Source of the DNA: an uncultured Ruminococcus sp.
GTDB lineage: Bacteria; Bacillota; Clostridia; Oscillospirales; Ruminococcaceae
Assembly: GCA_946186215.1 (NCBI GenBank)
Contig: CAMHMM010000001.1
Coordinates: forward strand, 1-40,597
Reading direction: 5' to 3'
DNA: 40,597 bases
Below, one piece after another: positions 1,431 to 38,663 of the stretch. Below the pieces are notes generated by a model that saw only the letters and a program-made list of their open reading frames with translations, did not search any database and was not told the DNA's origin. The first letter of the stretch is position 1. Each line of letters starts with the position of its first letter. A program made the position numbers and the translations under genes.

Positions 1431-1467
1431 TCTCTGCTTTGGACAGCAGGCAAAACCATACACAAAA

Positions 1468-1515
1468 GCCTCCCTCTGGGAGGGAGATGCCGAGCGCAGT
1501 GAGGCGGAGGGGTTC
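1468..1515. repeat. Palindromic repeat family 2, copy 1
   Basis: GCCTCCCTCTGGGAGGGAGATGCCGAGCGCAGTGAGGCGGAGGGGTTC; related copies at 12399-12441, 21503-21557 (rc), 33131-33180 (rc), partial 37963-37988. Confidence 0.8.
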
Positions 1516-6548: not shown

Positions 6549-7073
6549 ATGAATGACATTATCAAGGCAATGAAGGAACGCAGAAGCATCCGCAAATTCA
6601 AGCCGGATATGCCGTCGGCTGCCGATATTGATCAGATAATCGAAGCAGGTCTTTATGCTCCGAGCGGCATGGGAAAGCAGGCCGCAGTCATCCTTGCGAT
6701 AACCGATAAAACAGTACGCGACAGACTTTCCGATGCAAACAGAAGGATCGGCGGCTGGCAGGAGGGCTTTGATCCCTTCTACGGCGCTCCGGTTATCCTC
6801 GTGGTCCTTGCAGACAAGGAGTGCCGCACAAGCATCTATGACGGGGCGCTGGTAATGCAGAACCTTATGCTTGCCGCACATTCTCTCGGTCTCGGAAGCA
6901 TATGGATACACCGCGCAAAGGAAGAATTCGAGCAGGAAGAATGGAAGAGCTTTCTCAGATCTCACGGGATAGACGGCGACTTTGAGGGTGTCGGCCACTG
7001 CGCGATAGGCTTTGCAGACTGCGAACAGCCTCAGCCCACACCCCGTAAGGACGGCAGAGTTTTCAGGGTATGA
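6549..7073 (+). CDS. Nitroreductase family protein
   Basis: RRSIRKF, APSG, FYGAPV, QNLMLAAHSLGLGSIW; ATG 6549 is better spaced from GAAAGGA than 6540. Confidence 0.93.
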   Translation: MNDIIKAMKERRSIRKFKPDMPSAADIDQIIEAGLYAPSGMGKQAAVILAITDKTVRDRLSDANRRIGGWQEGFDPFYGAPVILVVLADKECRTSIYDGALVMQNLMLAAHSLGLGSIWIHRAKEEFEQEEWKSFLRSHGIDGDFEGVGHCAIGFADCEQPQPTPRKDGRVFRV

Positions 7074-7122
7074 TGATATCCGGCGATCCTCATTAAGTAA
7101 CTCATAAACAGCATAACAAAAC

Positions 7123-12372: not shown

Positions 12373-12398
12373 GTTGTACTTATTAAGCAGTGCAGTGA

Positions 12399-12441
12399 GC
12401 CTCCCTCAGGGAGGGAGGTGCCGAACACAGTGAGGCGGAGG
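12399..12441. repeat. Palindromic repeat family 2, copy 2
   Basis: GCCTCCCTCAGGGAGGGAGGTGCCGAACACAGTGAGGCGGAGG aligns with 1468-1511. Confidence 0.8.
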
Positions 12442-27479: not shown

Positions 27480-28078
27480 AATGTTGAAAACTTTCTCTCA
27501 CAGGAAATTTGATCCCGTATTTCTATGTATATATATATTATATGTTTTAGTATCTGTAGTAGTAGTGTTGAAACTGTTTAAAACACAGCATATCCCGTGT
27601 CACAGACATTTTCTCCCTGAAATTTTCAACCTTGCCTGTTTTGAAAAAAATCTCAAAAGTTTAAAACCCTAAAGGTCTGTTGAAAGACACTGAAAAACAG
27701 GTGTTGAAAGTTGAAAACCGGTCGAAAGTTATGTTTAAAAATCGGCACTTTCGGAAAGCCTGACGGTTTTTATCAAAAAGATGTTGAAAAGAGCTTATTT
27801 TCAACAGAGTTTTCAACAATCGTGTCGAAAACTCAGGATTTTCCGGAGGCTGAAAATCCCGAAAAATGTCAAAAAGTAACCGTTTGTTACCACTTTGTAA
27901 TAAAATCCCTTTAAACCGAGTTTTCAACATTTTGTTGAAAAAGATATTGAAAAGCATAAAAAAACAGCTCTTTTTTAAAAATCCGGAAATGTAGGAATGC
28001 ACATCCCGAAAACAATATCAACAGCATATGTTTGTGATATTTTACTTTAAACAGGATCTGTTGAAAAGTTTTCAACAG
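27480..28078. other. Predicted oriC: TTTTCAACA-type box array, DnaA-trios and AT-rich unwinding element
   Basis: Exact TTTTCAACA/TGTTGAAAA at 27482, 27782, 27798, 27810, 27921, 27933, 28059, 28069 plus several one-mismatch copies; minus strand near 27583-27523 reads TTTTAAACA-GTTTCAACA-CTACTACTAC-AGATACTAAAACATATAATATATATATA. Confidence 0.9.
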
Positions 28079-28792
28079 GTCGGCAAGGCCGACAGCTACT
28101 CGGCAGGCTGAGCCTGCACCCTCCCGTACTCTCATTTGTCAGGGAACGAGCTTTTGTGGCTCGGAACTCTTATTTACATTGAAGCTGGCGGCGAAACGCT
28201 GCTGTTGCCCGTATTTTTATATGTGGGTAACGCTCATCGGTGGCTAGGAGCTTTCATTTTCAAGTTTCGGGCTGCAAATGAGCGTTAACATTCAAATACA
28301 AGTGCGGGTAACAGCGGACTTTGTCCGCCTAACGGTAGCCTTTTGTTTTAAACGGTTTATTTGTTGCAGGTCAAAGGGGATGAAACACCAGAGGGACGGA
28401 GCATCAGTCCGCAATAGCGGCAGTATTTGTGCGCCGTCCCTCTTCGTTTCTCCCCTTTGTATCCCCTTTTCCCCACTCTTTTGTTATTTTGCTTTCCGTC
28501 GAACCCCGTTTGTAACTCACTCAGGATTATCAGTACACTAAATCTCACATTCACTCAGGTGTGTTCTGAGGGGACAGTCGCCGATGTATGTCTGCTTTCT
28601 GCTTCATTTGACTCGCCCTGACACTTGTAAGGACACCTGCTCTCAGGTTTAGCAACCTCTCATGTCAGTTTCTTCTGTTTACCCTTAGTAAAATAAAAGT
28701 TCCGGGCTTCAGATGATAGTTATCTTTCAAATGAAAGAGCGGGTAGTTGTCGGCCTTGCCGACCGGGTAACAGCGGTGTTTCGCCGCCCGGT
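28078..28792. repeat. Family-1 composite array with inverted halves, between oriC boxes and dnaA stop
   Basis: Hairpins and linkers at 28078-28260 in one orientation; 28262-28330 and 28693-28790 in the other. Confidence 0.9.
28304..28661. repeat. ~358-nt conserved structured element, copy A
   Basis: Colinear with 38042-38400; identical blocks 28370-28406 and 28428-28494 form a long hairpin. Confidence 0.9.
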
Positions 28793-30130
28793 TTAGCCGG
28801 CGGATTTCTTGATGTTCCTGATAAGATCCTCGATCGTGTCCCGTGTGAGGGGATCGGATTCTATGAGCTTTGTCACATCTGCGATGTAGAATGACACGGT
28901 GGCGTGATCTCTCTTGCCGAGCTCCGCACCGATATCCTGCAGTGAAAGCGATGTGCATTCCTTCATCACATAGGCCGCAGCCTTTCTTGCGATGGAGACC
29001 TGCTTTGCGCGAGATTTTGATTTTATCTCATCGGGTTTTACGCCGTATACCTGCGCAACATCCGCGATTATGCTGTCGTTTGTGAGGGTGGTGTCGTCAT
29101 CATCGGTGAGTATCTCCCTGATGACGCTCTGAACCTGCGCCATGGTAGGCGGCGAGTTCATAAGGCTCTGGTAGGCGCTGAGCTTTTTCACGCAGCCCTC
29201 GAGCTGTCTTACACTGGTCTTCAGCCTGCCAGCCATGTAGTTTATGTATTCCTCGCTGAGCTCAAGATCAAGTAGCCCCGCCTTTCTCTTGACGATGGCA
29301 CATCTTGTCTCATACTCTGGCATACCGATATCTGCGGTAAGACCGGATTCAAAGCGTGTCCTCAGCCTGTCCGCAAGGGATTTGATATTCTTCGGGTGCT
29401 GGTCGGAGGTTATCACGATCTGCTTTCCGTGGTTGTGGAGCTCGTTGAAGGTGTGGAAGAACTCCTCCTGCGTGGACTCCTTTCCGGAAATAAACTGTAT
29501 ATCATCCACCAGAAGCACATCAGCATTGCGGTACTTGCGCTTGAATGAAACAGTGTCCTGTATCTTTATAGCCTCGATCATTTCGCTGGTGAACTGCTCA
29601 CCTGTCACATAGATGATGTTGGCATCAGGATCGTTTTGCTGTATCCTGTTACTGATGGCCTTCATCAGATGGGTCTTGCCCAGTCCCGAATCCCCGTAAA
29701 TGAAAAGGGGATTGTATTTTCCGCCGGGGTTTTCAGCAACTCCCACACAGGCTGCATGGGCAAATTCATTGGATTTGCCGACTATGAAGGTGTCAAAGGT
29801 GTATTCATACTGGCCGTTGTTTACAGCCTTTGGCTTCGGCTTTTCTTCAAGCTTTTTCTTTTCATCCTCAGAGAGGATAACTATTTTTATCTTCCGTCCG
29901 GTGATATGCTCAAAGGCCTCATTTAATATCTCGCCGTGCTGCTCCTCGATCATATCCCTTGCCCAGTCCGAATCATCGCCGCTGACGGAGAGTGTGAAAA
30001 CATCTCCCTCAAAGCTTACGGGCTGGAGCTTTTTTATCAGAATATTATATGAAACATTGGTCAGCCTGTCCGAACGGACGAGCTGGCCGATGTAGTTCAT
30101 GACATCGTTGAAAATATCTGTAAATGACAT
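28793..30130 (-). CDS. dnaA: Chromosomal replication initiator DnaA
   Basis: YTFDTFIVGKSN, YNPLFIYGDSGLGKTHL, LLVDDIQF, QEEFFHTFN, RDHATV; start MSFTDIF (30130) after GGGG. Confidence 0.99.
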   Translation of the reverse strand: MSFTDIFNDVMNYIGQLVRSDRLTNVSYNILIKKLQPVSFEGDVFTLSVSGDDSDWARDMIEEQHGEILNEAFEHITGRKIKIVILSEDEKKKLEEKPKPKAVNNGQYEYTFDTFIVGKSNEFAHAACVGVAENPGGKYNPLFIYGDSGLGKTHLMKAISNRIQQNDPDANIIYVTGEQFTSEMIEAIKIQDTVSFKRKYRNADVLLVDDIQFISGKESTQEEFFHTFNELHNHGKQIVITSDQHPKNIKSLADRLRTRFESGLTADIGMPEYETRCAIVKRKAGLLDLELSEEYINYMAGRLKTSVRQLEGCVKKLSAYQSLMNSPPTMAQVQSVIREILTDDDDTTLTNDSIIADVAQVYGVKPDEIKSKSRAKQVSIARKAAAYVMKECTSLSLQDIGAELGKRDHATVSFYIADVTKLIESDPLTRDTIEDLIRNIKKSAG

Positions 30131-30342
30131 CTGTATCCCCTGAAAGTTGTAATGCAGGGTGTCACGCCGTATCAAGATAACAGCATGGGAAAAAACACCT
30201 GTGATAGACAGGGATCTGTCTGCCGTCTTACGGCTTTGTAAAACCCTGTCACGATGTGTATTATTCCTGCATTCTGCCCTGTGTTTTCCGCCGCAGGAAA
30301 AGCGGCAGGAGCGCAAAAAGGCAAAAGCACACCAACATAACT

Positions 30343-30371
30343 ATTATAGCACAAATGAAAAAAAAAATCAA
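30343..30371 (-). promoter_or_regulatory. Probable dnaA promoter
   Basis: TTGATT-17 nt-TATAAT with extended TGn; implies a 5' leader of about 200 nt. Confidence 0.7.
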
Positions 30372-30495
30372 GCAAAAAGATATATTTTGATATACTGTTT
30401 CTGGTAGATATAGAGCCTGTCAGAGATAATTTTGTTTTGTTGATAATGCACAAAATTCAATGAAATTTTTTTCAATATCATGTTGCTATAAAATT

Positions 30496-30524
30496 TTGAC
30501 ATTTTTTGAAAATTATGTTATAAT
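30496..30524 (+). promoter_or_regulatory. Consensus sigma-A promoter for the 30637 gene
   Basis: TTGACA-17 nt-TATAAT with extended TGn. Confidence 0.85.
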
Positions 30525-30636
30525 CAAAATAGTGATGTCCTGTCCCTCAGGACAGGATCAAAGCCTTTGTAAACGATTTTTTATTTAGTGATAAAGAGCG
30601 GAAAACGAGAAAACCTACCGGATCGGAGCAGATACT

Positions 30637-32142
30637 ATGGCAAATGAATTTGATTCCGCAGCATATGCTGCTGCACATCAGGAAAAAAAGATAGGTTCCT
30701 ATGAGGCTATATTCAAGGAATCTGCCTTTGCAAAGCCTCAGAATATCTATTTCACCATTACCGCAGGGCATATATTCGGAGAGGCCTTCGTAATGGAGCA
30801 GCAGGGCACCATGGAGGGCGATCCTGTTTACTGCAGATTCGTGTGCGGTCTCGAGGATATAACCAAGGTCTATATCAACGACAGAGTAAAGGTATCACCG
30901 CTGTTTATCCAGTGCGATACAGATGTGAAGGGCGTAGTTCACAGAAAAAGGATAATCGTTCCCTGTCTTCCCAATGTAAAGGAAATACTTGAGGAGATAA
31001 AGAAAGTCCACGCCGTTCATATGAAGAAATTTGAGGAGACGAAGCAGCGCGAAAGAGAGAGAAAGCTCGAGGAGCTTCGCAGGAACGAAGGCAGCGAGCC
31101 TGTTCAGGAGCAGGAAGCACAGCCCGAGGCAGTCGCACCCGAGAAGAGAAGCATCTATTTCGATCCCTCGCTCCCCGCATCACTGCCTCCCAGAAAGAAG
31201 CCCTCAAAGCTTGAGCTCACAGCCGATCTCGAAGAGGATCTCAAAACTCTTGAAAAGCTTTCCATGGCTGTATCCGCAAATGCAGGTACTTCCAAGCAGG
31301 AAAGCCAGAGCGGTGATTCTCCCGAGGTGGAGAAGGCTCTTGAAGCATTAAAGGGCGAGATAGAGGAGATCACTGCTCCCAAGAAGCGCCTTAAAAAGGC
31401 AAAGTCTGATATTGACGATCAGGTGCCCGAGCTTGATACAAAGAAGATAAAGGCTCCCAAGAAGATAAAGCACAACCCCGACGAGGTAGAGTCCATCGCA
31501 GCGGGAGAAGAGGTCAACACAGAAGAGATACTCGGTGTTCCCGCAGCAGTAGAGCAGGTTGAGAACAGTGTTGAGGAGATAAGCGCCGGCAACAAAAAGC
31601 CGCCCAAGGTAAAGACCGATATCCCCGATGAGCTGCTTTCGCTGGAGCTTCCGCCAATCGTTGAGCTGTCCCACGCTGATGAGCTTTCAACAGGTGATAT
31701 GCTCACCGATGTTGATGATGCGATAGCTGAGGAAAAGGCTGCAGAGGAGGCTCGTCTTGCCGAGGAAGCAAAGCTTGCACAGGAAAAAGCCGAAGCAGAG
31801 GCTAAGGCCGCTGAAGAAGCACGCATCGCCGAGGAAAAGCGCCTTGCGGAAGAAAAGGCAGCAGAAGAGGCTCGTCTTGCCGCAGAAGCGCAGGCAGCCG
31901 AGGAAGCAAGACTTGCGGAGGAGCAGCGCCTTGAAGAGGAAAGAAAGGCAAAGGAAAGAGCATCGTCCATCAGGAGCACAGAAAAGGTACGCACTGTTCC
32001 CAACAGGATAAGCGAGGGCACACAGAGCGGCGGCCTGAAAGATTTTGAGGACGCTATGAAGGCTCTTGCCGCAAGGAAGAATGAGCTTTCTCCCGAGGAA
32101 TACGCTCAGGAGAAGAAGAAGATAATAGCAACTCTTTATTGA
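30637..32142 (+). CDS. Hypothetical protein: globular N-terminus, long acidic linker, E/A/K/R helical repeats, SHOCT-like C-terminus
   Basis: 501-aa ORF, SD GGAG; repeated EEKAAEEARLA; ends LSPEEYAQEKKKIIATLY. Confidence 0.85.
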   Translation: MANEFDSAAYAAAHQEKKIGSYEAIFKESAFAKPQNIYFTITAGHIFGEAFVMEQQGTMEGDPVYCRFVCGLEDITKVYINDRVKVSPLFIQCDTDVKGVVHRKRIIVPCLPNVKEILEEIKKVHAVHMKKFEETKQRERERKLEELRRNEGSEPVQEQEAQPEAVAPEKRSIYFDPSLPASLPPRKKPSKLELTADLEEDLKTLEKLSMAVSANAGTSKQESQSGDSPEVEKALEALKGEIEEITAPKKRLKKAKSDIDDQVPELDTKKIKAPKKIKHNPDEVESIAAGEEVNTEEILGVPAAVEQVENSVEEISAGNKKPPKVKTDIPDELLSLELPPIVELSHADELSTGDMLTDVDDAIAEEKAAEEARLAEEAKLAQEKAEAEAKAAEEARIAEEKRLAEEKAAEEARLAAEAQAAEEARLAEEQRLEEERKAKERASSIRSTEKVRTVPNRISEGTQSGGLKDFEDAMKALAARKNELSPEEYAQEKKKIIATLY

Positions 32143-32152
32143 TATGATAAGC

Positions 32153-32178
32153 TATCCCACGCCCTGCGGCGTGGGATA
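32153..32178 (+). terminator. Hairpin after the 30637 gene
   Basis: TATCCCACGCC-CTGC-GGCGTGGGATA. Confidence 0.65.
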
Positions 32179-32215
32179 TATACACTTTTTAAGTATATTG
32201 ACGCGGGTGAATGAA

Positions 32216-33124
32216 ATGAATATAAAAAAATATGCCGCTGTTTGTGCAGCGATCATGGTAATGAGTGCAGGAGTGCCGATCGGCAGCTTTGAAAATATGC
32301 CTTCTCTGTGTACAAGCGTATCAGCCGACGGGTATTATTATGTGCTCAACAAGCAGAGCAGCATCAAGGCTGTGCTCGGTGACGACGGTACTCTCAGCAT
32401 CAGCGGTTACGGTGAGATAACCAACGGAAGCTGGGTATACAAAAAGGACAAGACTGCAATAAAGTCGGTCGTATTTGAAAAGGGCAGCAGGATAACATCC
32501 ATCGGCGACGGCGCTTTCAGCGGATGCACTGCTCTTGAATCGGTAAAGCTCCCTGCTTACTTAAAGGAGATCCACGCAAACGCATTTTCGGGATGCGGGG
32601 CTCTTTCCGCTGTGAGCATACCCACCAAATGCACAGTTATCGGTAAAAACGCCTTTCTTGGCTGCACCTCACTTAAAAAGGTGACCTTCAGGGCAACGGC
32701 ACCCATCGCATTTTCCACCAAGTCCTTTGCCGACCTTACAGAGGATGTGACTGTGGAGATACCTGTGGGATCAACCTACGGAAAAAAGGAGATACTCGAA
32801 AGTCTCAAAAACGACAGGTTCGCTTCTGTTTTCGGTGATGCTCAGGTAATAAGAAAGGACACTCCCGACGAGCGCACCACACCTACGGTATATGCAGATA
32901 ACGGAAAGATCACCATAAGCTGGAAGGGTGCGGAGAATGCCCGTTATTATAATGTATATCTGATGAAGAATGACGGCAGTCTCAAAAAGCTCACCACCAC
33001 CGAAAAGACCACCTATGTGATGAACTGCAAGATAAATGGCCGCTACCGCTTTGCCATCCGCGCATACATCAACGGAAAATGGACAAAGGTATCCGACAAG
33101 GAAGTAGTTACGATACTTGCGTAA
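32216..33124 (+). CDS. Secreted BspA-type leucine-rich repeat (LRR_5) protein with C-terminal Fn3-like domain
   Basis: Signal-like MNIKKYAAVCAAIMVM; ITSIGDGAFSGCTAL-type repeats; ITISWKGAENARYYNVY...YRFAIRAY. Confidence 0.88.
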   Translation: MNIKKYAAVCAAIMVMSAGVPIGSFENMPSLCTSVSADGYYYVLNKQSSIKAVLGDDGTLSISGYGEITNGSWVYKKDKTAIKSVVFEKGSRITSIGDGAFSGCTALESVKLPAYLKEIHANAFSGCGALSAVSIPTKCTVIGKNAFLGCTSLKKVTFRATAPIAFSTKSFADLTEDVTVEIPVGSTYGKKEILESLKNDRFASVFGDAQVIRKDTPDERTTPTVYADNGKITISWKGAENARYYNVYLMKNDGSLKKLTTTEKTTYVMNCKINGRYRFAIRAYINGKWTKVSDKEVVTILA

Positions 33125-33130
33125 GGGATC

Positions 33131-33203
33131 GAACCCCCCTCCGCCTCACTGCGCCCGGCACCTCCCCTTTCAGTGGCGGCAAGACAGGCAGAGTCTGCAT
33201 CCA
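33131..33203. repeat. Family-2 copy plus degenerate family-1 hairpin
   Basis: Reverse complement aligns with 1468-1515; followed by CAGGCAGAGTCTGCATCC. Confidence 0.8.
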
Positions 33204-33227
33204 CGCAACAAAATAGAGTAAGATAAA

Positions 33228-33710
33228 ATGATACACATACGAAAATTCAGAAACGGTGATGAACAGGCGGTCGCGGATGTGATAGCCGTGACCATGCGGA
33301 CTGTGAATATAAAGGATTATCCCGAAAAATACATAGAGGACGCAGTTGCATTCCTGAATGCTTCAAAGATAAAGGAGCGCTCGGGCTGGATGCATCTCTA
33401 TGTGGTCTGCGATGATGATATGATCATCGGCTGCGGCGGCATCGCTCCCTACTGGAGCAAGGAAGATGAGAGCATCATATTCACCGTTTTCGTCCTGCCC
33501 GAATATCACGGCCACGGCATCGGCAGGAGCATCATTGAAGCGATAGAAAAGGACGAGATATTCCTTCGGGCGCGGCGCATCGAGGTGCCCGCATCCATAA
33601 CGGCGCTTGAATTTTACAGAAAAATGGGCTACGACTACAAGGACGGCAAAAAAGAGATAAACGAGGATATGGTCTATCTTCTTGAAAAAAGGCGCGAACC
33701 CGCAGTATGA
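33228..33710 (+). CDS. GNAT family N-acetyltransferase
   Basis: VFVLPEYHGHGIGR and ASITALEFYRKMGY. Confidence 0.93.
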   Translation: MIHIRKFRNGDEQAVADVIAVTMRTVNIKDYPEKYIEDAVAFLNASKIKERSGWMHLYVVCDDDMIIGCGGIAPYWSKEDESIIFTVFVLPEYHGHGIGRSIIEAIEKDEIFLRARRIEVPASITALEFYRKMGYDYKDGKKEINEDMVYLLEKRREPAV

Positions 33711-33716
33711 ACTAAC

Positions 33717-33755
33717 AAAACAACCTCCCCGCTTGCAAACGGGGAGGTTGTTTTG
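33717..33755. terminator. Bidirectional terminator
   Basis: AAAACAACCTCCCCG-CTTGCAAA-CGGGGAGGTTGTTTT between convergent genes. Confidence 0.88.
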
Positions 33756-33782
33756 CATTTATTTAAAGGTTTAAAGGAGTTA

Positions 33783-34193
33783 TCAGAATATAATGTCATC
33801 TATATCAACGATGTAGTAGTTATGGCCCTTGATGTAGAAATATCCGATATCGTCGGAATAATAGATCTTTCTCTTGTAGATATCCTTGCCGATGTACTCG
33901 GTGAATGTAAAGTCCCAACCGAGGGATTCGCCGGTGCTGCCGCCGTTATATGCATAATAGCCTATCTTTGTGCTGTAATATACATCTCCATAGAAAGCGT
34001 CCTTGCCGACATATACGATTTCCTGATAAATGCCGTACTCGTCTTCCTGATATACCTGACCATCATTTACTCCGTCGTAAAATACATCTCCGTCATATGT
34101 ATAGTATGTAGCTGCTCCGACTGTTGAGAATACGGATACAGATGCGATAAGTGCTGCGATAGCTGCTGTTATTGTTCTCTTTGTGTTTTTCAT
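33783..34193 (-). CDS. Small secreted Tyr-rich protein with internal duplication
   Basis: Signal peptide MKNTKRTITAAIAALIAS...VGA; SD AGGAGG; YVGKDAFYGDVYYSTKIGYY resembles YIGKDIYKRKIYYSDDIGYF. Confidence 0.85.
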   Translation of the reverse strand: MKNTKRTITAAIAALIASVSVFSTVGAATYYTYDGDVFYDGVNDGQVYQEDEYGIYQEIVYVGKDAFYGDVYYSTKIGYYAYNGGSTGESLGWDFTFTEYIGKDIYKRKIYYSDDIGYFYIKGHNYYIVDIDDIIF

Positions 34194-34260
34194 AATAGGT
34201 TCCTCCTGAATTTAAAGCTTTTTTTATTTTATTTTTTGAAGCTTTGTTTTTTTCGCTTCT

Positions 34261-34315
34261 GTCTGTTTAACCGATGCAATGGAAAAAAAGGACAAGATTT
34301 TCTGAAAAAATTTTT
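34261..34315 (-). promoter_or_regulatory. Putative ECF-sigma promoter motif, copy 1
   Basis: Minus strand: AAATTTTTTCAGAAAATCT-TGTCC-16 nt-CGGTTAAACAGAC; near-identical motif at 38664-38715 (+). Confidence 0.65.
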
Positions 34316-34369
34316 GAGGATCTGTTTTTAGTGTTTCCTTAAAAGTAAATTAGAATTTCCCTGATCACA

Positions 34370-34398
34370 TTGACATAAGGAGAATTTTGGTATAGAAT
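34370..34398 (+). promoter_or_regulatory. Sigma-A-type promoter for the 34498 gene
   Basis: TTGACA-17 nt-TAGAAT. Confidence 0.65.
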
Positions 34399-34497
34399 TT
34401 AACTACGATCCCAAACAAATGATATGAGAAGTGATCGGTGGTCTGCCACTGACCGCCGGCCGCCGGACACTGATCACCCAAACAAACGGAGAATGAC

Positions 34498-34809
34498 ATG
34501 AGTTCTGTTAATGCAAGCGATACCGAGAAAATAAGACAATATTACAACAGAAAGCTTATCGGTGAAGAGCTCGGAAGAGAAATAAAAAAGCCGGTCAGGA
34601 TAGATCTTGTTGATACACTTGCCGTGGCTGCCGGCAGCTTTCTCGGCTATTTTCTCAACAGCCTGATAAATCCCGGTGTGGTGATAGGCAGCCCTGTGGC
34701 AGAGTTTATTGCGGAATCATTCATTGTTACCGCGACCGTGGTGATAGTTGAGGTCACTGTGGGATATATCAGACAGGCAATAGGAAAAATAAGAAAGCAC
34801 GGTGAATGA
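34498..34809 (+). CDS. Hypothetical two-TM protein
   Basis: 103 aa, SD GGAG, two hydrophobic segments. Confidence 0.7.
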   Translation: MSSVNASDTEKIRQYYNRKLIGEELGREIKKPVRIDLVDTLAVAAGSFLGYFLNSLINPGVVIGSPVAEFIAESFIVTATVVIVEVTVGYIRQAIGKIRKHGE

Positions 34810-34842
34810 TCATCGTGCTTTTGTGTTACAGGTCATAAGAAA

Positions 34843-34877
34843 GCGGCGTTCACTGCTGAACGCCGCCGGATTTTTTT
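34843..34877. terminator. Terminator between convergent genes
   Basis: GCGGCGTTCA-CTGC-TGAACGCCGC followed by a T-tract. Confidence 0.75.
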
Positions 34878-34889
34878 AAGAATTACAGA

Positions 34890-35870
34890 TTACAGAAGAT
34901 GTGCGCGGGTGTCCTCGCCGGTTCTGTCGATAAGGTATGCAGGAGCGATATCGAAGATAGTCTTGCAGCCTGTAACGCCCTCGGCATTGAGCTTGTATGC
35001 AGCGCGGGCAAATGCCAGAAGAACGCTGGATGTGAATTCGGGGTTGGAATCGAGCTTTAAGGAGAACTCGATAACAGCCTTGTTAGTGCCGTCGCCTACC
35101 TCGCCGGAGCGGATAACAAAGCCGCCGTGAGGGATGCCTGCATGATCTCTCTTCATCTCTTCCTCGGAGATAAAGTGAACGGTGGTATCATAATCAGAGA
35201 AGTAGTTGGGCATGGTCTTGATCTTTTCCTCGATCACAGCTTTGTCAGCGCCTTCCTCTGCTACGACGAATACCTCTCTTGTGTGCTTTTCCCTTGTGGT
35301 GAGAACGGGATTCTCGCCGCTTCTTACTCTTTCAAGTGCGCTTTCAACGGGGATAGTGTACTGTCTTGCATCCTTAACGCCCTCAACGCGTCTTACAGCG
35401 TCGGAATGTCCCTGAGAAACGCCCTTGCCCCAGAAGGTGTAGTCAGAACCGTCGGGGAGAACGGCATTTGTATAAAGTCTGAGAAGTGAGAACAGACCGG
35501 GATCCCAGCCTACGGAAATAATGCCGACCTTGCCTGCTGCCTTTGCTGCAGCGTCAACATTTGCAAAGTGCTCGGGAATCTTTGCATGAGTGTCAAAGCT
35601 GTCGATCACATTGAAATATTTAGCCATTTCGGGTGTCTGCACGGGAAGATCGTTTGCGCTGCCGCCGCAGAGGATGAGAACATCTATTTCGTCCTTATGT
35701 GCTGCTGCTTCATCAGCCTTATAAACAGGTACGCCCTGTGTTGCGATCTTTACGGATGCGGGGTCACGCCTTGTAAATACAGCCTTGAGCTCGCAGTCCT
35801 GAGAGCGCCTTACAGCGTGTTCAACGCCTCTGCCGAGATTTCCGTAGCCGTAGATACCTATTCTTATCAT
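34890..35870 (-). CDS. ddh: meso-diaminopimelate D-dehydrogenase
   Basis: GYGNLGRG, LCGGSANDL, DSFDTH, GWDPGLFS, TFWGKGVSQGHSDA, HGG, SNPEFT. Confidence 0.97.
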   Translation of the reverse strand: MIRIGIYGYGNLGRGVEHAVRRSQDCELKAVFTRRDPASVKIATQGVPVYKADEAAAHKDEIDVLILCGGSANDLPVQTPEMAKYFNVIDSFDTHAKIPEHFANVDAAAKAAGKVGIISVGWDPGLFSLLRLYTNAVLPDGSDYTFWGKGVSQGHSDAVRRVEGVKDARQYTIPVESALERVRSGENPVLTTREKHTREVFVVAEEGADKAVIEEKIKTMPNYFSDYDTTVHFISEEEMKRDHAGIPHGGFVIRSGEVGDGTNKAVIEFSLKLDSNPEFTSSVLLAFARAAYKLNAEGVTGCKTIFDIAPAYLIDRTGEDTRAHLL

Positions 35871-35909
35871 GTTATCACCTTTTTTACAGAAATTTGGAAA
35901 ATACTATGT

Positions 35910-35940
35910 ATAGTTTATCACAGCCTTGCAGGATTGTCAA
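35910..35940 (-). promoter_or_regulatory. Probable ddh promoter
   Basis: TTGACA-17 nt-TAAACT with extended TGn on the minus strand. Confidence 0.6.
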
Positions 35941-36175
35941 TAAATAAATTCAATAAAAAGCATATTATTTTGTTGTAAATATTATGTGAAATGCCTTTAA
36001 ATCGCCATAATCGGGAATTTACAGCCGTTATGAAATGAAGTATGGCATTGATAGAAATTGCAATTGATTCAAAGCTTTGCTTTAAGGAAAGCAGCGGCAT
36101 CCGCCGCCTTGAAGACAGCAGATATTTTTATAAAGATGAGTAATTGTGATGGGTGATAAGGTCAAGACTTATAAT

Positions 36176-36213
36176 AAAAAACGCAGATGGCTCAGATGTC
36201 ATCTGCGTTTTTT
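36176..36213 (-). terminator. Rho-independent terminator after the MBL-fold gene
   Basis: AAAAAACGCAGATGGC-TCAGAT-GTCATCTGCGTTTTTT. Confidence 0.85.
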
Positions 36214-37022
36214 CATACTAATTTTTCACCGCTGTGCAGGGATCTGAGCTTATCGCCCATGATTTCCTTCATCATCTCAAATGCCGGGATACCTGTGCAG
36301 TGTCCGCTGTAGAAAACGGTATTCATCTGTGAAAGCTCCCGGGCTGTCTGAATAATGACGGATTTTTCCTCATCGGTGTGTTCGCCATCACGCTTCATCA
36401 TGTGAAATCCGCTTATCACATAGTCGGGAACGCTTCCGAAAAGTTCTCTGTATCTGTCAAGGATATTGAGAATACCGTTATGAGCGCAGCCCGATAAAAG
36501 CCAGCGTATGCCGTTCTGTGTTATGACAAGGCATTGTTCATGTACAAAATCGTCTTCGGCTTTTTCTCCGTCCTTCAGACAGGAAAGCTTTCTGTTGCCC
36601 TGCGGATAGCACCGCCTGCCTGTGATACCGCTGAACAGAAACAGTTCATCATCAAGCTGTATATTACCGTCGATCAGACGGATATTCGGTAATTTAAGGA
36701 TATCCGTATCTATGCCGATATAGCGTTCACCGTTAAAATGCGGTTCGGCGGCTGTTCTCTGCATGATTATCTGTGCTGTGTGGTTGAGCTCTGAAAAGGG
36801 CAGAATACCGCCTGAATGGTCATAATGGCCGTGGCTGAGGATAACAGTATCAACAGCGGTAAGGTCAATGCCGAGCGTTTCAGCGTTTGTGACAACTGCA
36901 TCAGTCTGTCCAGTATCAAGCAGAAGCCTGTGCTTTTCTGTCTCGATATATACCGAGAGACCGTGCTCGGCAATACAGCTTTCGCTCCCGACAGTATTTT
37001 CTACAAGTGTTATGATCTTCAT
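36213..37022 (-). CDS. MBL-fold metallo-hydrolase
   Basis: AEHGLS, LLDTG, LSHGHYDHSGG, GCAHNG, GFH, HCTG. Confidence 0.93.
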   Translation of the reverse strand: MKIITLVENTVGSESCIAEHGLSVYIETEKHRLLLDTGQTDAVVTNAETLGIDLTAVDTVILSHGHYDHSGGILPFSELNHTAQIIMQRTAAEPHFNGERYIGIDTDILKLPNIRLIDGNIQLDDELFLFSGITGRRCYPQGNRKLSCLKDGEKAEDDFVHEQCLVITQNGIRWLLSGCAHNGILNILDRYRELFGSVPDYVISGFHMMKRDGEHTDEEKSVIIQTARELSQMNTVFYSGHCTGIPAFEMMKEIMGDKLRSLHSGEKLV

Positions 37023-37738
37023 TCGTGTTTACCGCAGCAATGATCTCCGCAGAAATGCTCTTCACCATGTTCATGATCATGATGATCACAGGTAGGATCA
37101 TCATTCTGTACAAGTGTATCTGCAAGGAAGGATGTAACTGCATCATCAGCATATCCGGTATTTCCGCCGTAAAGAGCAATACCTGCTTCCTGCATTGCCA
37201 TCTGAGCACCTCCGCCGATACCGCCGCAGATCAGCACATCTACCTGAGCACTCCTCAGAAATCCGGCAAGAGCACCATGTCCTGCGCCGTTAGTGCCAAC
37301 TACCTGTTCGTTTATGATCTTACCGTCAGTGATATCATAGAGCTTGAATTGTTCTGTCCTTCCAAAGTGCTGGAATATTTGTCCGTTTTCATAGGTTACT
37401 GCTATTCTCATGATCGTATTTCCTTTCCGGATTATTTCTTCCGAGATATTATTGTCGAGTGTATAATTTCCGCCTGAGATCACTATGCGCTTTCCTTCCA
37501 CCAGAGCTGCTGCCAGCTTTTTTCGTGCGCTTTCATATATCGCCGTAACGGTAGTCCTTGCGACATTCATTTCAGCAGCGCATTGTTCCTGAGTTTTTCC
37601 CTGATAGTCTATCAGCCGTATAGTTTCAAACTCGTCAAGTGACATTGTGACTGTATCGTTTGCAATATCCTGATCGGGGGCAAAGCTCCAGTAATCGGGA
37701 TAACAGCATATACGGCGCGTTTTCTGAGGTCTGGGCAT
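37019..37738 (-). CDS. DUF134 HTH domain fused to a NifB/NifX-family cofactor-binding domain, His/Cys tail
   Basis: MPRPQKTRR...EFETIRLID..G.TQEQCAAEMNVARTT...ARKKLA.ALVEGK, then MRIAV...HFGRT...ICGGIGGGA and CDHHDHEHG...CGDHCCG; start 37738 after AAAGGAG. Confidence 0.92.
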   Translation of the reverse strand: MPRPQKTRRICCYPDYWSFAPDQDIANDTVTMSLDEFETIRLIDYQGKTQEQCAAEMNVARTTVTAIYESARKKLAAALVEGKRIVISGGNYTLDNNISEEIIRKGNTIMRIAVTYENGQIFQHFGRTEQFKLYDITDGKIINEQVVGTNGAGHGALAGFLRSAQVDVLICGGIGGGAQMAMQEAGIALYGGNTGYADDAVTSFLADTLVQNDDPTCDHHDHEHGEEHFCGDHCCGKHE

Positions 37739-37754
37739 AGAACCATCTCCTTTA

Positions 37755-37795
37755 CGACTTATGTCAATTATATCAGATAATATGACATATGTCAA
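37755..37795 (-). promoter_or_regulatory. Consensus promoter with two palindromic operator-like sites
   Basis: TTGACA (37795-37790)-17 nt-TATAAT (37772-37767), extended TGn; TGACATATGTCA at 37783-37794 and CGACTTATGTCA at 37755-37766. Confidence 0.85.
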
Positions 37796-37826
37796 GTATA
37801 GATTTTGCTGCACCACTGCCTGAGAG

Positions 37827-38663
37827 CGGGCAGGCAGAGCCTGCACCCTCCCGGCAGGGAAACGCCGCTGTTACCCGTGCGCTATTTTGCAGGGGAACGC
37901 TCATTTGTGGCTCGGAACCGTAATTGATGCACTGTTTTAGGCGTGACCACGCTAATAAGGACTTGCCGAGAGAAGCGAGGCGGTGGGGTTTACAAACTAA
38001 AGTTCCGGGCTTCAAATGAGAGTTACCATTCAAATGAGAGCGCGGGAAACAGCGGGTTTTACCCGCCGAACGGTAGCCTATTGTCTTAAATTGTATATTT
38101 GCAGCGAGTCAAAGGGGATGAAACACCAGAGGGACGGAGCATCAATTTGAAATGACGACATTATCTGTGCGCCGTCCCTCTTCGTTTCTCCCCTTTGTAT
38201 CCCCTTTTCCCCACTCTTTTGTTATTTTGCTTCCCGTTTGGACACCGTTTATAACCCACTCAGGATTATCAGCACAATAAATTTTACATTCGCTCAGATA
38301 GGTTCTGTGTGGACAGTTGCCGATAAATGCCTGCTTTCTGTTTTGTTTGTCTCGCCCTGTCATTTGGTAAGTCACCTGCTCTCAGGTTTATAAACCTCTC
38401 CTATAAATTTGTGCTGTCAGCCTTGCCGTTATCATATAATAATAGTAGATATAAAAGTTCCGAGCTACAAATGAGAGACTTCGTACAAAAGAGAGTACGG
38501 GTAGGTGTTGGCCTTGCCGACCGGGTAACAGCGGGTTTTACCCGCCGGGTGGGTGCAGGCTCTGTCTGTTTTCTAACTCGCTTTATGTGGAAATAAGAGT
38601 TCCGGGCTGCAAATGAGAGTTACCATTCAAATGAAAGCGCGGGAGGGTGCAGGCACTGCCTGC
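37827..38663. repeat. Family-1 composite array with inverted halves
   Basis: Hairpins and linker at 37827-37920 in one orientation; linkers near 38000, 38453, 38595 and a three-hairpin run at 38498-38569 in the other. Confidence 0.9.
38042..38400. repeat. ~358-nt conserved structured element, copy B
   Basis: Colinear with 28304-28661; identical blocks 38108-38144 and 38166-38232. Confidence 0.9.

What the first reader, a model, noticed from the sequence alone, without database searches (positions are those of the whole stretch)
28304..38400. A ~358-nt non-coding element present twice, with an invariant bulged hairpin, carried inside the REP arrays
Seen: 28304-28661 and 38042-38400 are colinear (358 vs 359 nt) with many scattered substitutions, yet blocks of 37 and 67 nt are identical. 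These pair as CAAAGGGGA-T-GAAAC-ACC-AGAGGGACGG-A-GCA / TGC-G-CCGTCCCTCT-TC-GTTTC-TCCCCTTTG around a 26-nt loop that keeps its length but diverges in sequence. Bulges and mismatches are also conserved. Both copies have the same context (linker, GCGG hairpin, element, linker, GTCGGC and GCGG hairpins), so homology spans over 500 nt. No common ORF is preserved. Inference: the core is under selection for recognition, either as a structured ncRNA or as the cis site of a non-autonomous element. I do not recognise an Rfam family.
Basis: partly seen in the sequence, partly recalled or inferred. Interest (0 to 1): 0.8.

Follow-up and report, generated by a model that had tools for sequence, protein, structure and literature searches.

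The report
Mosaic repeat with triple-helix hairpin core
A 330-base non-coding unit is scattered about 28 times through this gut bacterium's genome as patchwork copies of fixed length, and its unchanging core is a hairpin plus a mirror-image tail that likely folds into three-stranded DNA, which makes it a long variant of the little-understood bacterial triplex repeats rather than a new RNA gene.

Summary
The element is not a pair: 28 loci in this genome, 19 full-length, 77-89% alike, of fixed length, with no ORF and no Rfam match. Related families occur in four other Ruminococcus/Oscillospiraceae genomes. On the minus strand this reads third strand, purine arm, long loop, pyrimidine arm: a class I purine-motif intrastrand triplex. 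All 21 perfect 8-triad motifs in the genome lie in this element; three shuffles gave none. In a sister family the tail tracks six stem variants in mirror register (p=0.003). In this genome alone, against composition-matched shuffles, support is weak (p 0.07-0.11). Copies are mosaics: linkage is near the free-recombination level beyond about 20 nt, and orthologous copies in sister strains have swapped alleles. No mobilising enzyme was found. Best reading: a DNA-level, non-autonomous repeat related to BoxC/PIT/TM triplex repeats, spread in trans and shuffled by short-patch conversion. It is a new variant of a known kind, not a new RNA.

The parts
28331..28661 (.). Copy 1 of the ~332-nt fixed-length core, between the dnaA 3' end and the DnaA-box-like cluster before dnaN
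38069..38400 (.). Copy 2 of the core
28372..28459 (.). Bulged hairpin of copy 1 (lower stem with one bulged base, internal loop, 10-bp upper stem, variable ~30-nt top)
38110..38197 (.). Bulged hairpin of copy 2
28460..28476 (-). Invariant tail of copy 1; mirror of the 3' arm; predicted third (reverse-Hoogsteen) strand on the minus strand. Perfect triads: 28460-28467 on 28451-28458 paired with 28373-28380
38198..38214 (-). Invariant tail of copy 2; predicted third strand (38198-38205 on 38189-38196 paired with 38111-38118)
28306..28329 (+). 24-nt REP-like hairpin (type A) abutting the core; exchangeable between copies
38044..38067 (+). 24-nt REP-like hairpin (type A) abutting copy 2
28078..28303 (.). 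Left mosaic arm of copy 1: REP-like hairpins and linkers, mostly in inverted orientation (ends approximate)
28694..28790 (+). Right arm of copy 1: linker and two REP-like hairpins, ending at the dnaA stop (ends approximate)
37829..38041 (.). Left mosaic arm of copy 2 (ends approximate)
38454..38661 (+). Right arm of copy 2: two linkers and four REP-like hairpins (ends approximate)

Best explanation
It is a dispersed, non-coding, fixed-length repeat with patchwork copies, whose invariant core likely folds in single-stranded DNA into a bulged hairpin bound by its own mirror-image tail (a purine-motif triple helix), and which is probably spread by an enzyme acting in trans and shuffled by short-patch gene conversion. 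Shown: copy number, fixed length, invariance of stem and tail, mirror symmetry, compensatory pairs between species, mosaic copies, allele swaps at orthologous sites, different sites in a congener. Inferred: that the triplex forms (when the strand is unpaired in replication, repair or transcription); that it is the handle for a structure-specific nuclease or stalls the polymerase, starting repair from another copy; that the same handle allows new insertions. The enzyme is not identified. A DUF559 nuclease is the best lead, because such genes sit beside related short triplex repeats in this family, but none sits beside this element.
For: Triplex: genome-wide scan for perfect 8-triad purine-motif intrastrand triplexes gave 21 hits, 21 inside this element, and 0 in each of 3 shuffled genomes (one family, so one observation). 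Given the hairpin, 22 of 5000 random intergenic 20-mers gave a run as long as the real tail's 11 with one mismatch. Three-way change at one stem position, in register only for the mirror model: A/T/T in G000 and L125, L135, L146 against G/C/C in L016, L017 (one event). In the G061-type family the tail follows the upper stem: 70 of 80 triads over 10 haplotypes (permuted mean 57, p=0.0005), 43 of 48 over 6 arm variants (p=0.003); mirror identity 0.83 against at most 0.74 for a direct repeat. The third strand carries T on A-T pairs, allowed in the purine motif (Holder et al.) and so on the minus strand as DNA. DNA-level and mobile: 3 same/same and 4 opposite/opposite gene contexts among 15 copies with both neighbours called; found in 1 of 29 congeners; one G026-type site shares a neighbour gene with a G000 copy. 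Conversion: r2 0.23 within 6 nt against 0.079 permuted, 0.068 beyond 40 nt against 0.061 for free recombination; four-gamete fraction about 0.7 beyond 10 nt; segment distances uncorrelated (-0.25 to 0.25) while odd/even columns within a segment correlate (0.26-0.54); at one locus two strains differ by an insertion allele seen at several paralogous loci (L127 against L066). Length between anchors is 302-303 nt in 19 of 19. 19 of 21 DUF559 loci in the family carry a class II triplex motif nearby.
Against: In G000 alone the tail is not significantly better than its own shuffles (p 0.065-0.11 in fixed register; mean p 0.39 by local alignment), so purine richness carries much of the signal. Lower-stem triad runs of the G061/G063 types have p 0.11-0.61. 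The permutation score allowed T on C-G pairs after I had seen it (tolerance recalled, not from a call). One of 10 haplotypes (L161 minus) has a non-matching tail, and the L127/L061/L066 variant does not gain triads. 5 of 12 G026-type rows have a hairpin inserted between arm and tail. The perfect 8-triad form needs a 1-nt loop. The same strand scores 1.92 by a G4Hunter-type score. No Y1_Tnp, DDE_3, Transposase_20 or DUF559 in G000 (82% complete) or in G061-G063, and only an IS200-type TnpA in G026. None of 21 DUF559 loci carries this element. No empty site or target duplication was shown for G000. Holder et al. saw no stable triplex in vivo by DMS. The model does not explain the 186-nt 3' part, with its 63 invariant columns and fixed length.
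Confidence: 0.55

Rival explanations
1. The core is a hairpin recognised as such, and the tail is conserved as a protein-binding site or as G-runs of a quadruplex that competes with the hairpin, not as a third strand.
For: Four G-runs on the minus strand, G4Hunter-type score 1.92. Tail not significant against its own shuffles in G000. The tail could also pair antiparallel with the 5' arm over 9 bp (read).
Against: The fourth G-run is absent in the G026 type. Neither a quadruplex nor antiparallel pairing predicts the in-register three-way change or the tracking of six stem variants.
Confidence: 0.15
2. The unit is passive cargo of a REPIN- or MITE-type element: the arms are what a RAYT or DDE transposase recognises, and the core is kept uniform by conversion alone.
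For: Inverted arms of 24-nt REP-like hairpins and linkers in G000 (about 400 hairpins), two of three types with a GTAG/GTGG-like tag. 19-nt terminal inverted repeats in G061/G062.
Against: The arms differ wholly between species while the core is kept. Conversion leaves the loop and the 3' part variable but stem and tail invariant. No RAYT or IS630-type gene found. A 3-nt duplication fits only 2 of 4 complete G061/G062 elements.
Confidence: 0.15
3. A multi-copy structured RNA, possibly with a pyrimidine-motif triple helix on the plus strand.
For: Stable fold on both strands; contigs over the element in rumen metatranscriptomes at depth 3-14; one weak promoter-like site near copy 2 (at chance level).
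Against: No orientation rule; no consensus structure or clear covariation outside the hairpin (one perfect pair among 93 sites); no Rfam; plus-strand triads need many adjacent protonated C and fail at the A positions; RNA contigs cannot show strand or level.
Confidence: 0.12
4. A guide or bridge RNA whose fixed-length loop is a programmable spacer, or an assembly chimera.
For: 21 different loops among 22, all of one length. The hairpin base resembles type I-E CRISPR repeat ends, which the search pattern also caught.
Against: Loops are mosaics of shared alleles (57% of 8-mers recur in place) and match their own flanks no better than others' (6.8 against 7.0 nt). No IS110. Other samples carry the same junctions.
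Confidence: 0.03

Closest known systems
BoxC / PIT / TMECO intrastrand triplex repeats (Holder et al. 2015, PMC4666352; parts 1, 4, 5 of 10 and passages read; Hoyne and Maher 2000 only as cited there)
   Same: Three blocks on one strand (pyrimidine, purine, mirror purine) with G.G-C, A.A-T and T.A-T triads; intergenic; no strand bias; no neighbouring transposase; similar copy number; patchy among relatives; unstable loci.
   Different: Class I, not class II; the purine-pyrimidine loop is a ~70-nt bulged hairpin, not 3-6 nt, so it falls outside the ITxF definition; does not fit the TMECO pattern; embedded in a 332-nt fixed-length unit; Clostridia, which the paper does not mention (0 occurrences).
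BIMEs / REPINs with RAYT (Di Nocera et al. 2013, PMC3733652, passages)
   Same: Intergenic mosaics of 24-nt GC-rich hairpins and linkers in inverted arms; species-specific; hundreds of copies.
   Different: No RAYT found; one hairpin type has GTAA instead of the GTAG tag; the 332-nt core is not a REP and is shared by species whose arms are unrelated.
MITEs of the RUP / ERIC / Correia kind (Delihas 2011, PMC3184786, passages)
   Same: Non-coding, dispersed, within the size range of the larger MITEs; the G061/G062 relatives have terminal inverted repeats, several right behind stop codons.
   Different: No fixed terminal inverted repeat or target duplication in G000; 77-89% identity with free shuffling, not a recent burst; no IS630-type gene found.
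Short class II triplex repeats beside DUF559 genes (seen here; not found described in the papers searched)
   Same: Purine-motif triplex layout; such repeats occur in this window and inside the same arrays; G026-type copies carry a similar hairpin between arm and third strand.
   Different: Class II, about 45 nt, short first loop; 0 of 21 DUF559 loci carry the long element.

Membership tests
BoxC/PIT/TM intrastrand triplex repeats | Three blocks on one strand giving at least 8 G.G-C, A.A-T or T.A-T triads | tested here: met
   21 copies with 8 perfect triads, 0 in shuffles
BoxC/PIT/TM intrastrand triplex repeats | Both loops 1-6 nt (ITxF) and TMECO pattern, class II | tested here: not met
   class I; second loop about 70 nt
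BoxC/PIT/TM intrastrand triplex repeats | Intergenic, no strand bias | tested here: met
BoxC/PIT/TM intrastrand triplex repeats | Third strand covaries with the duplex | tested here: inconclusive
   met in the G061 type (p=0.003) and at one position G000/G026 type; core invariant and p 0.065-0.11 in G000
BoxC/PIT/TM intrastrand triplex repeats | Triplex forms in vitro (CD, NMR, DMS) | not testable with these tools
   needs the bench
REP/REPIN with RAYT | Short GC-rich hairpins with a GT(A/G)G tag in inverted arms | tested here: inconclusive
   fits flanking types B and C, not type A or the core
REP/REPIN with RAYT | RAYT gene flanked by the same repeats | tested here: not met
   none in G000 (82% complete) or G061-G063; IS200-type TnpA only in G026
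MITE | Terminal inverted repeats | tested here: inconclusive
   present in G061/G062; no fixed ones in G000
MITE | Target-site duplication and empty sites | tested here: inconclusive
   3-nt duplication in 2 of 4 complete G061/G062 elements; no sister strain of G000 held
MITE | Cognate DDE transposase with the same ends | tested here: not met
   DDE_3 in 0 of 5 genomes; other DDE families were not searched
Known RNA family (Rfam 15) | Match at gathering score | tested here: not met
IS110 bridge RNA | IS110 transposase, and loops that match target or donor | tested here: not met

The most novel reading that the evidence does not exclude
A selfish DNA system in which a triple-helix-capped hairpin is the recognition handle of a small trans-acting nuclease (DUF559-like) that both seeds new copies and drives templated, roughly 10-nt patch exchange among them, keeping a 332-nt scaffold at fixed length while its sequence is freely recombined: a mechanism for the long-orphan BoxC/PIT repeats, and a natural short-patch diversifier.
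Probability: 0.17. Interest if true: 0.8.

Novelty: new variant of a known kind. Interest (0 to 1): 0.45.

Why it matters
Bacterial intrastrand-triplex repeats have been known since the 1990s without a function, a mover or comparative proof that the third strand matters (Holder et al.). This family offers natural triple-compensatory variants, so selection on a triple helix becomes testable. The near-free shuffling of 19 paralogues at about 10-nt scale with fixed length gives a measurable read-out of the recombination that such motifs are thought to provoke. One copy lies beside the probable replication origin. The limits: five genomes of uncultured bacteria, no enzyme, and no phenotype.

Tried and rejected
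ORF in the element: none common, no triplet periodicity. Rfam: none. Plasmid and phage records: no match. Viral contigs: 0 and 4 pattern hits, the 4 not family members. Family-wide tail pattern: 0 of 400 other genomes. REP linker: 0-1 hits in each of 29 congeners against 116 in G000. Enzyme searches in G000, G026, G061-G063: Y1_Tnp 1 of 5 (IS200-type), DDE_3 0, Transposase_20 0, DUF559 0; GIY-YIG gave one long protein each (about 620 aa, UvrC by my reading) plus one 75-aa frame in G063 not beside the element. An HUH-motif scan and a multi-copy protein scan of G000 gave nothing; 22 genes between arrays, read by eye, are host genes. Of 102 ORFs near 20 metagenome copies, the 42 nearest were scanned: no transposase, nuclease or reverse transcriptase family at 1e-8; 18 had no family. 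The cross-genome neighbour comparison was swamped by the repeat and its output was cut. Helical periodicity of conservation: none (p 0.11-0.41). Loop as guide: rejected. Promoter and terminator scans: chance level. RNA runs: contigs only, low depth, no strand. G.T asymmetry in upper stems (16 for minus, 2 for plus) is mostly shared descent and was not counted. Invariance of central lower-stem pairs across families is forced by my search pattern and was not counted. Integron attC, group II intron domain VI and CRISPR I-E likenesses (recalled) fail on motif conservation across families. Earlier-findings look-ups by sequence and by place were empty. Paper searches found no description of this family (listings only, except the three papers named; no supplements read).
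Full report
1. Observation. The two stretches align with one gap and 84% identity; the identical blocks are 67 and 37 nt; the bulged hairpin folds on both strands. No Rfam family and no shared open frame. Copy 1 lies between dnaA and dnaN; copy 2 between a DUF134/Nitro_FeMo-Co gene and a class II aldolase gene. Contigs of other rumen samples cover copy 1 and its junction into dnaA, so it is not an artefact.

2. It is a family. BLAST of the assembly (2.28 Mb, 365 contigs, 82% complete) gave 28 loci at E<=1e-10; 19 are full length, the other 9 are cut by contig ends and were left out of the column statistics. The core is 332 nt (38069-38400), 77-89% identical between copies, 302-303 nt between two anchors in 19 of 19 (one copy has an 11-nt duplication beyond the anchor). 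It sits in intergenic mosaics built from three 24-nt REP-like hairpins (144, 130 and 133 matches) and a linker (242 matches), in 175 arrays of two or more modules, arranged differently at each copy. Orientation to neighbouring genes follows no rule: of 15 copies with both neighbours called, 7 lie between divergent genes, 1 between convergent, 3 with and 4 against a tandem pair.

3. Relatives. One of 29 congeners (G026) has the core (19 matches to its own version), homologous along its length but with other arms. A hairpin-base pattern over the species-level genome collection gave 11 hits: 9 real, in 4 genomes whose record titles say Ruminococcus sp. or Oscillospiraceae, and 2 chance. The metagenome scan gave 60 hits, of which 20 are family members (8 G026-type, 12 G061-type) and 40 chance or CRISPR-like repeats. 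G061 and G062 copies end in 19-nt inverted repeats. So the core is old and rare, and the arms are replaced from species to species. One G026-type site shares a neighbour gene with a G000 copy, the others do not (27 loci, partly overlapping): the unit has moved.

4. What is conserved. Over 19 copies: 5' arm 25 of 28 columns invariant, loop 5 of 30, 3' arm 27 of 30, the 17 nt after the hairpin 17 of 17, the rest 63 of 186. Compensatory pairs appear between and within species. The consensus fold finds little outside the hairpin.

5. The third strand. The invariant tail is a mirror image of the 3' arm. On the minus strand the order is mirror strand, purine arm, long loop, pyrimidine arm, which is class I of Holder et al. 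(PMC4666352). A scan of the genome for perfect 8-triad purine-motif triplexes (third-strand loop 1-6 nt, second loop up to about 90 nt) found 21, all in this element, and none in three shuffles. Given the hairpin, a random intergenic 20-mer matches as well in 22 of 5000 trials, but a shuffle of the tail itself does so in 6.5-11%, and by local alignment the G000 mirror is no better than shuffles. The stronger evidence is comparative. One stem position changes in all three strands between G000/L125/L135/L146 and L016/L017, in register only for the mirror model. In the G061 type six upper-stem variants each carry their own mirrored tail (43 of 48 triads, p=0.003; 70 of 80 over 10 haplotypes, with 7 insertion haplotypes left out), while the sequence just downstream assorts freely. 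That score counts T on a C-G pair as allowed, a tolerance recalled and adopted after seeing the data. Exceptions are L161 (minus) and the L127/L061/L066 variant. Five of 12 G026-type rows have a hairpin inserted between arm and tail. T in the third strand on A-T pairs fits the purine motif on the minus strand, which Holder et al. say cannot form in RNA; this points to DNA. A quadruplex is a real rival in G000, less so in the G026 type.

6. Mosaicism. Linkage is 0.23 within 6 nt (permuted 0.079, maximum 0.105 of 2000) and 0.068 beyond 40 nt, against 0.061 for free recombination; distances between copies in different segments are uncorrelated; about 70% of site pairs beyond 10 nt show four gametes. 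Multi-base alleles recur in otherwise unlike copies, which recurrent point mutation does not give. In the sister family one orthologous locus differs between strains by an insertion allele present at several paralogues (L127, L066), and L133/L152 differ by clustered changes in the 5' module. This is short-patch exchange among paralogues (inference).

7. The missing enzyme. No RAYT, IS630-type, IS110 or DUF559 gene was found in G000 or G061-G063, and none beside 20 metagenome copies (42 of 102 ORFs scanned). These assemblies are incomplete or of unstated completeness, so absence is not shown. Following earlier scan notes, I tested DUF559: 16 of 160 family genomes have it, and 19 of 21 loci examined carry a short class II triplex motif nearby (7 triads, loose loops, no shuffled control). 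A repeat of that kind occurs in this window and resembles the one beside the congener's DUF559 gene. None of the 21 loci carries the long element. DUF559 is therefore a lead only.

8. Mechanism. Most likely (0.55): when the purine strand is unpaired it folds into the bulged hairpin, and the tail lies back in its major groove. This structure is a nuclease handle or a polymerase block (PIT elements block polymerase in vitro but showed no effect in vivo, Holder et al.). Repair from another copy swaps short patches; positions needed for the fold stay fixed; rarely the unit is copied to a new intergenic site together with whatever arms the species uses. Folding, enzyme and route of spread are inferred. 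The 186-nt 3' part is unexplained. Rivals: hairpin plus protein site or quadruplex (0.15), passive cargo of a REPIN or MITE (0.15), structured RNA (0.12), guide RNA or artefact (0.03).

9. Known and new. It works like BoxC/PIT/TM repeats but fails their loop and class definition; its setting is BIME-like; its relatives are MITE-like. Six paper searches showed no description of this family; the library lacks most subscription papers, and no supplements were read. Thirty earlier scan findings hold the same key words, some on short triplex-type repeats of gut Clostridia, so the class is not new to the scan. What this case adds is the long class I core, its fixed-length 332-nt scaffold and the measured near-free recombination. 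Verdict: new variant of a known kind, interest 0.45.

Noticed in passing
window 27482-28077: Eight copies of a variant DnaA-box-like 9-mer between dnaN and the array (15 in the window against 1.6 expected): the probable replication origin, with a repeat array and the predicted triplex directly beside it.
   Followed up: partly
window 1467-1510 and 12398-12441: Short repeats of class II triplex layout (the first passes a 6-triad scan, the second does not), similar to the repeat beside a DUF559 gene in congener G003 (L191); 43 plus 7 related modules in the genome.
   Followed up: partly
L191, L208-L227: 19 of 21 DUF559 loci of this family carry class II triplex motifs with a hairpin in the second loop, often one on each side of the gene in inverted orientation.
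   Followed up: partly
L111 (G062:C362, near 7020-7120): An element of about 100 nt made only of the two terminal inverted repeats and arms, a long near-perfect palindrome without the core.
   Followed up: no
L046, L047, L049, L074: G061/G062 elements begin right at the stop codon of the upstream gene.
   Followed up: no
G000:C157, C27, C81, C170, C203 copies, just 5' of the core: The degenerate form of the 5' hairpin contains a perfect DnaA-box consensus (motif recalled) in five copies.
   Followed up: no
L072, L074 (G061): A segment of about 150-200 nt replaces the base of the hairpin in several G061 copies (split matches).
   Followed up: no
L132, L151, L165, L173, L174, L176: The hairpin-base pattern also matches CRISPR arrays with type I-E-like repeats (type recalled); probably a shared palindrome style.
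   Followed up: partly
window 31726-31941: Ala/Glu-rich coding tandem repeat in the 501-aa ORF 30637-32142.
   Followed up: no
G000:C97 near 1558 and L021: The one site where G000 and G026 both carry the element beside the same gene: an old insertion or a preferred site.
   Followed up: partly
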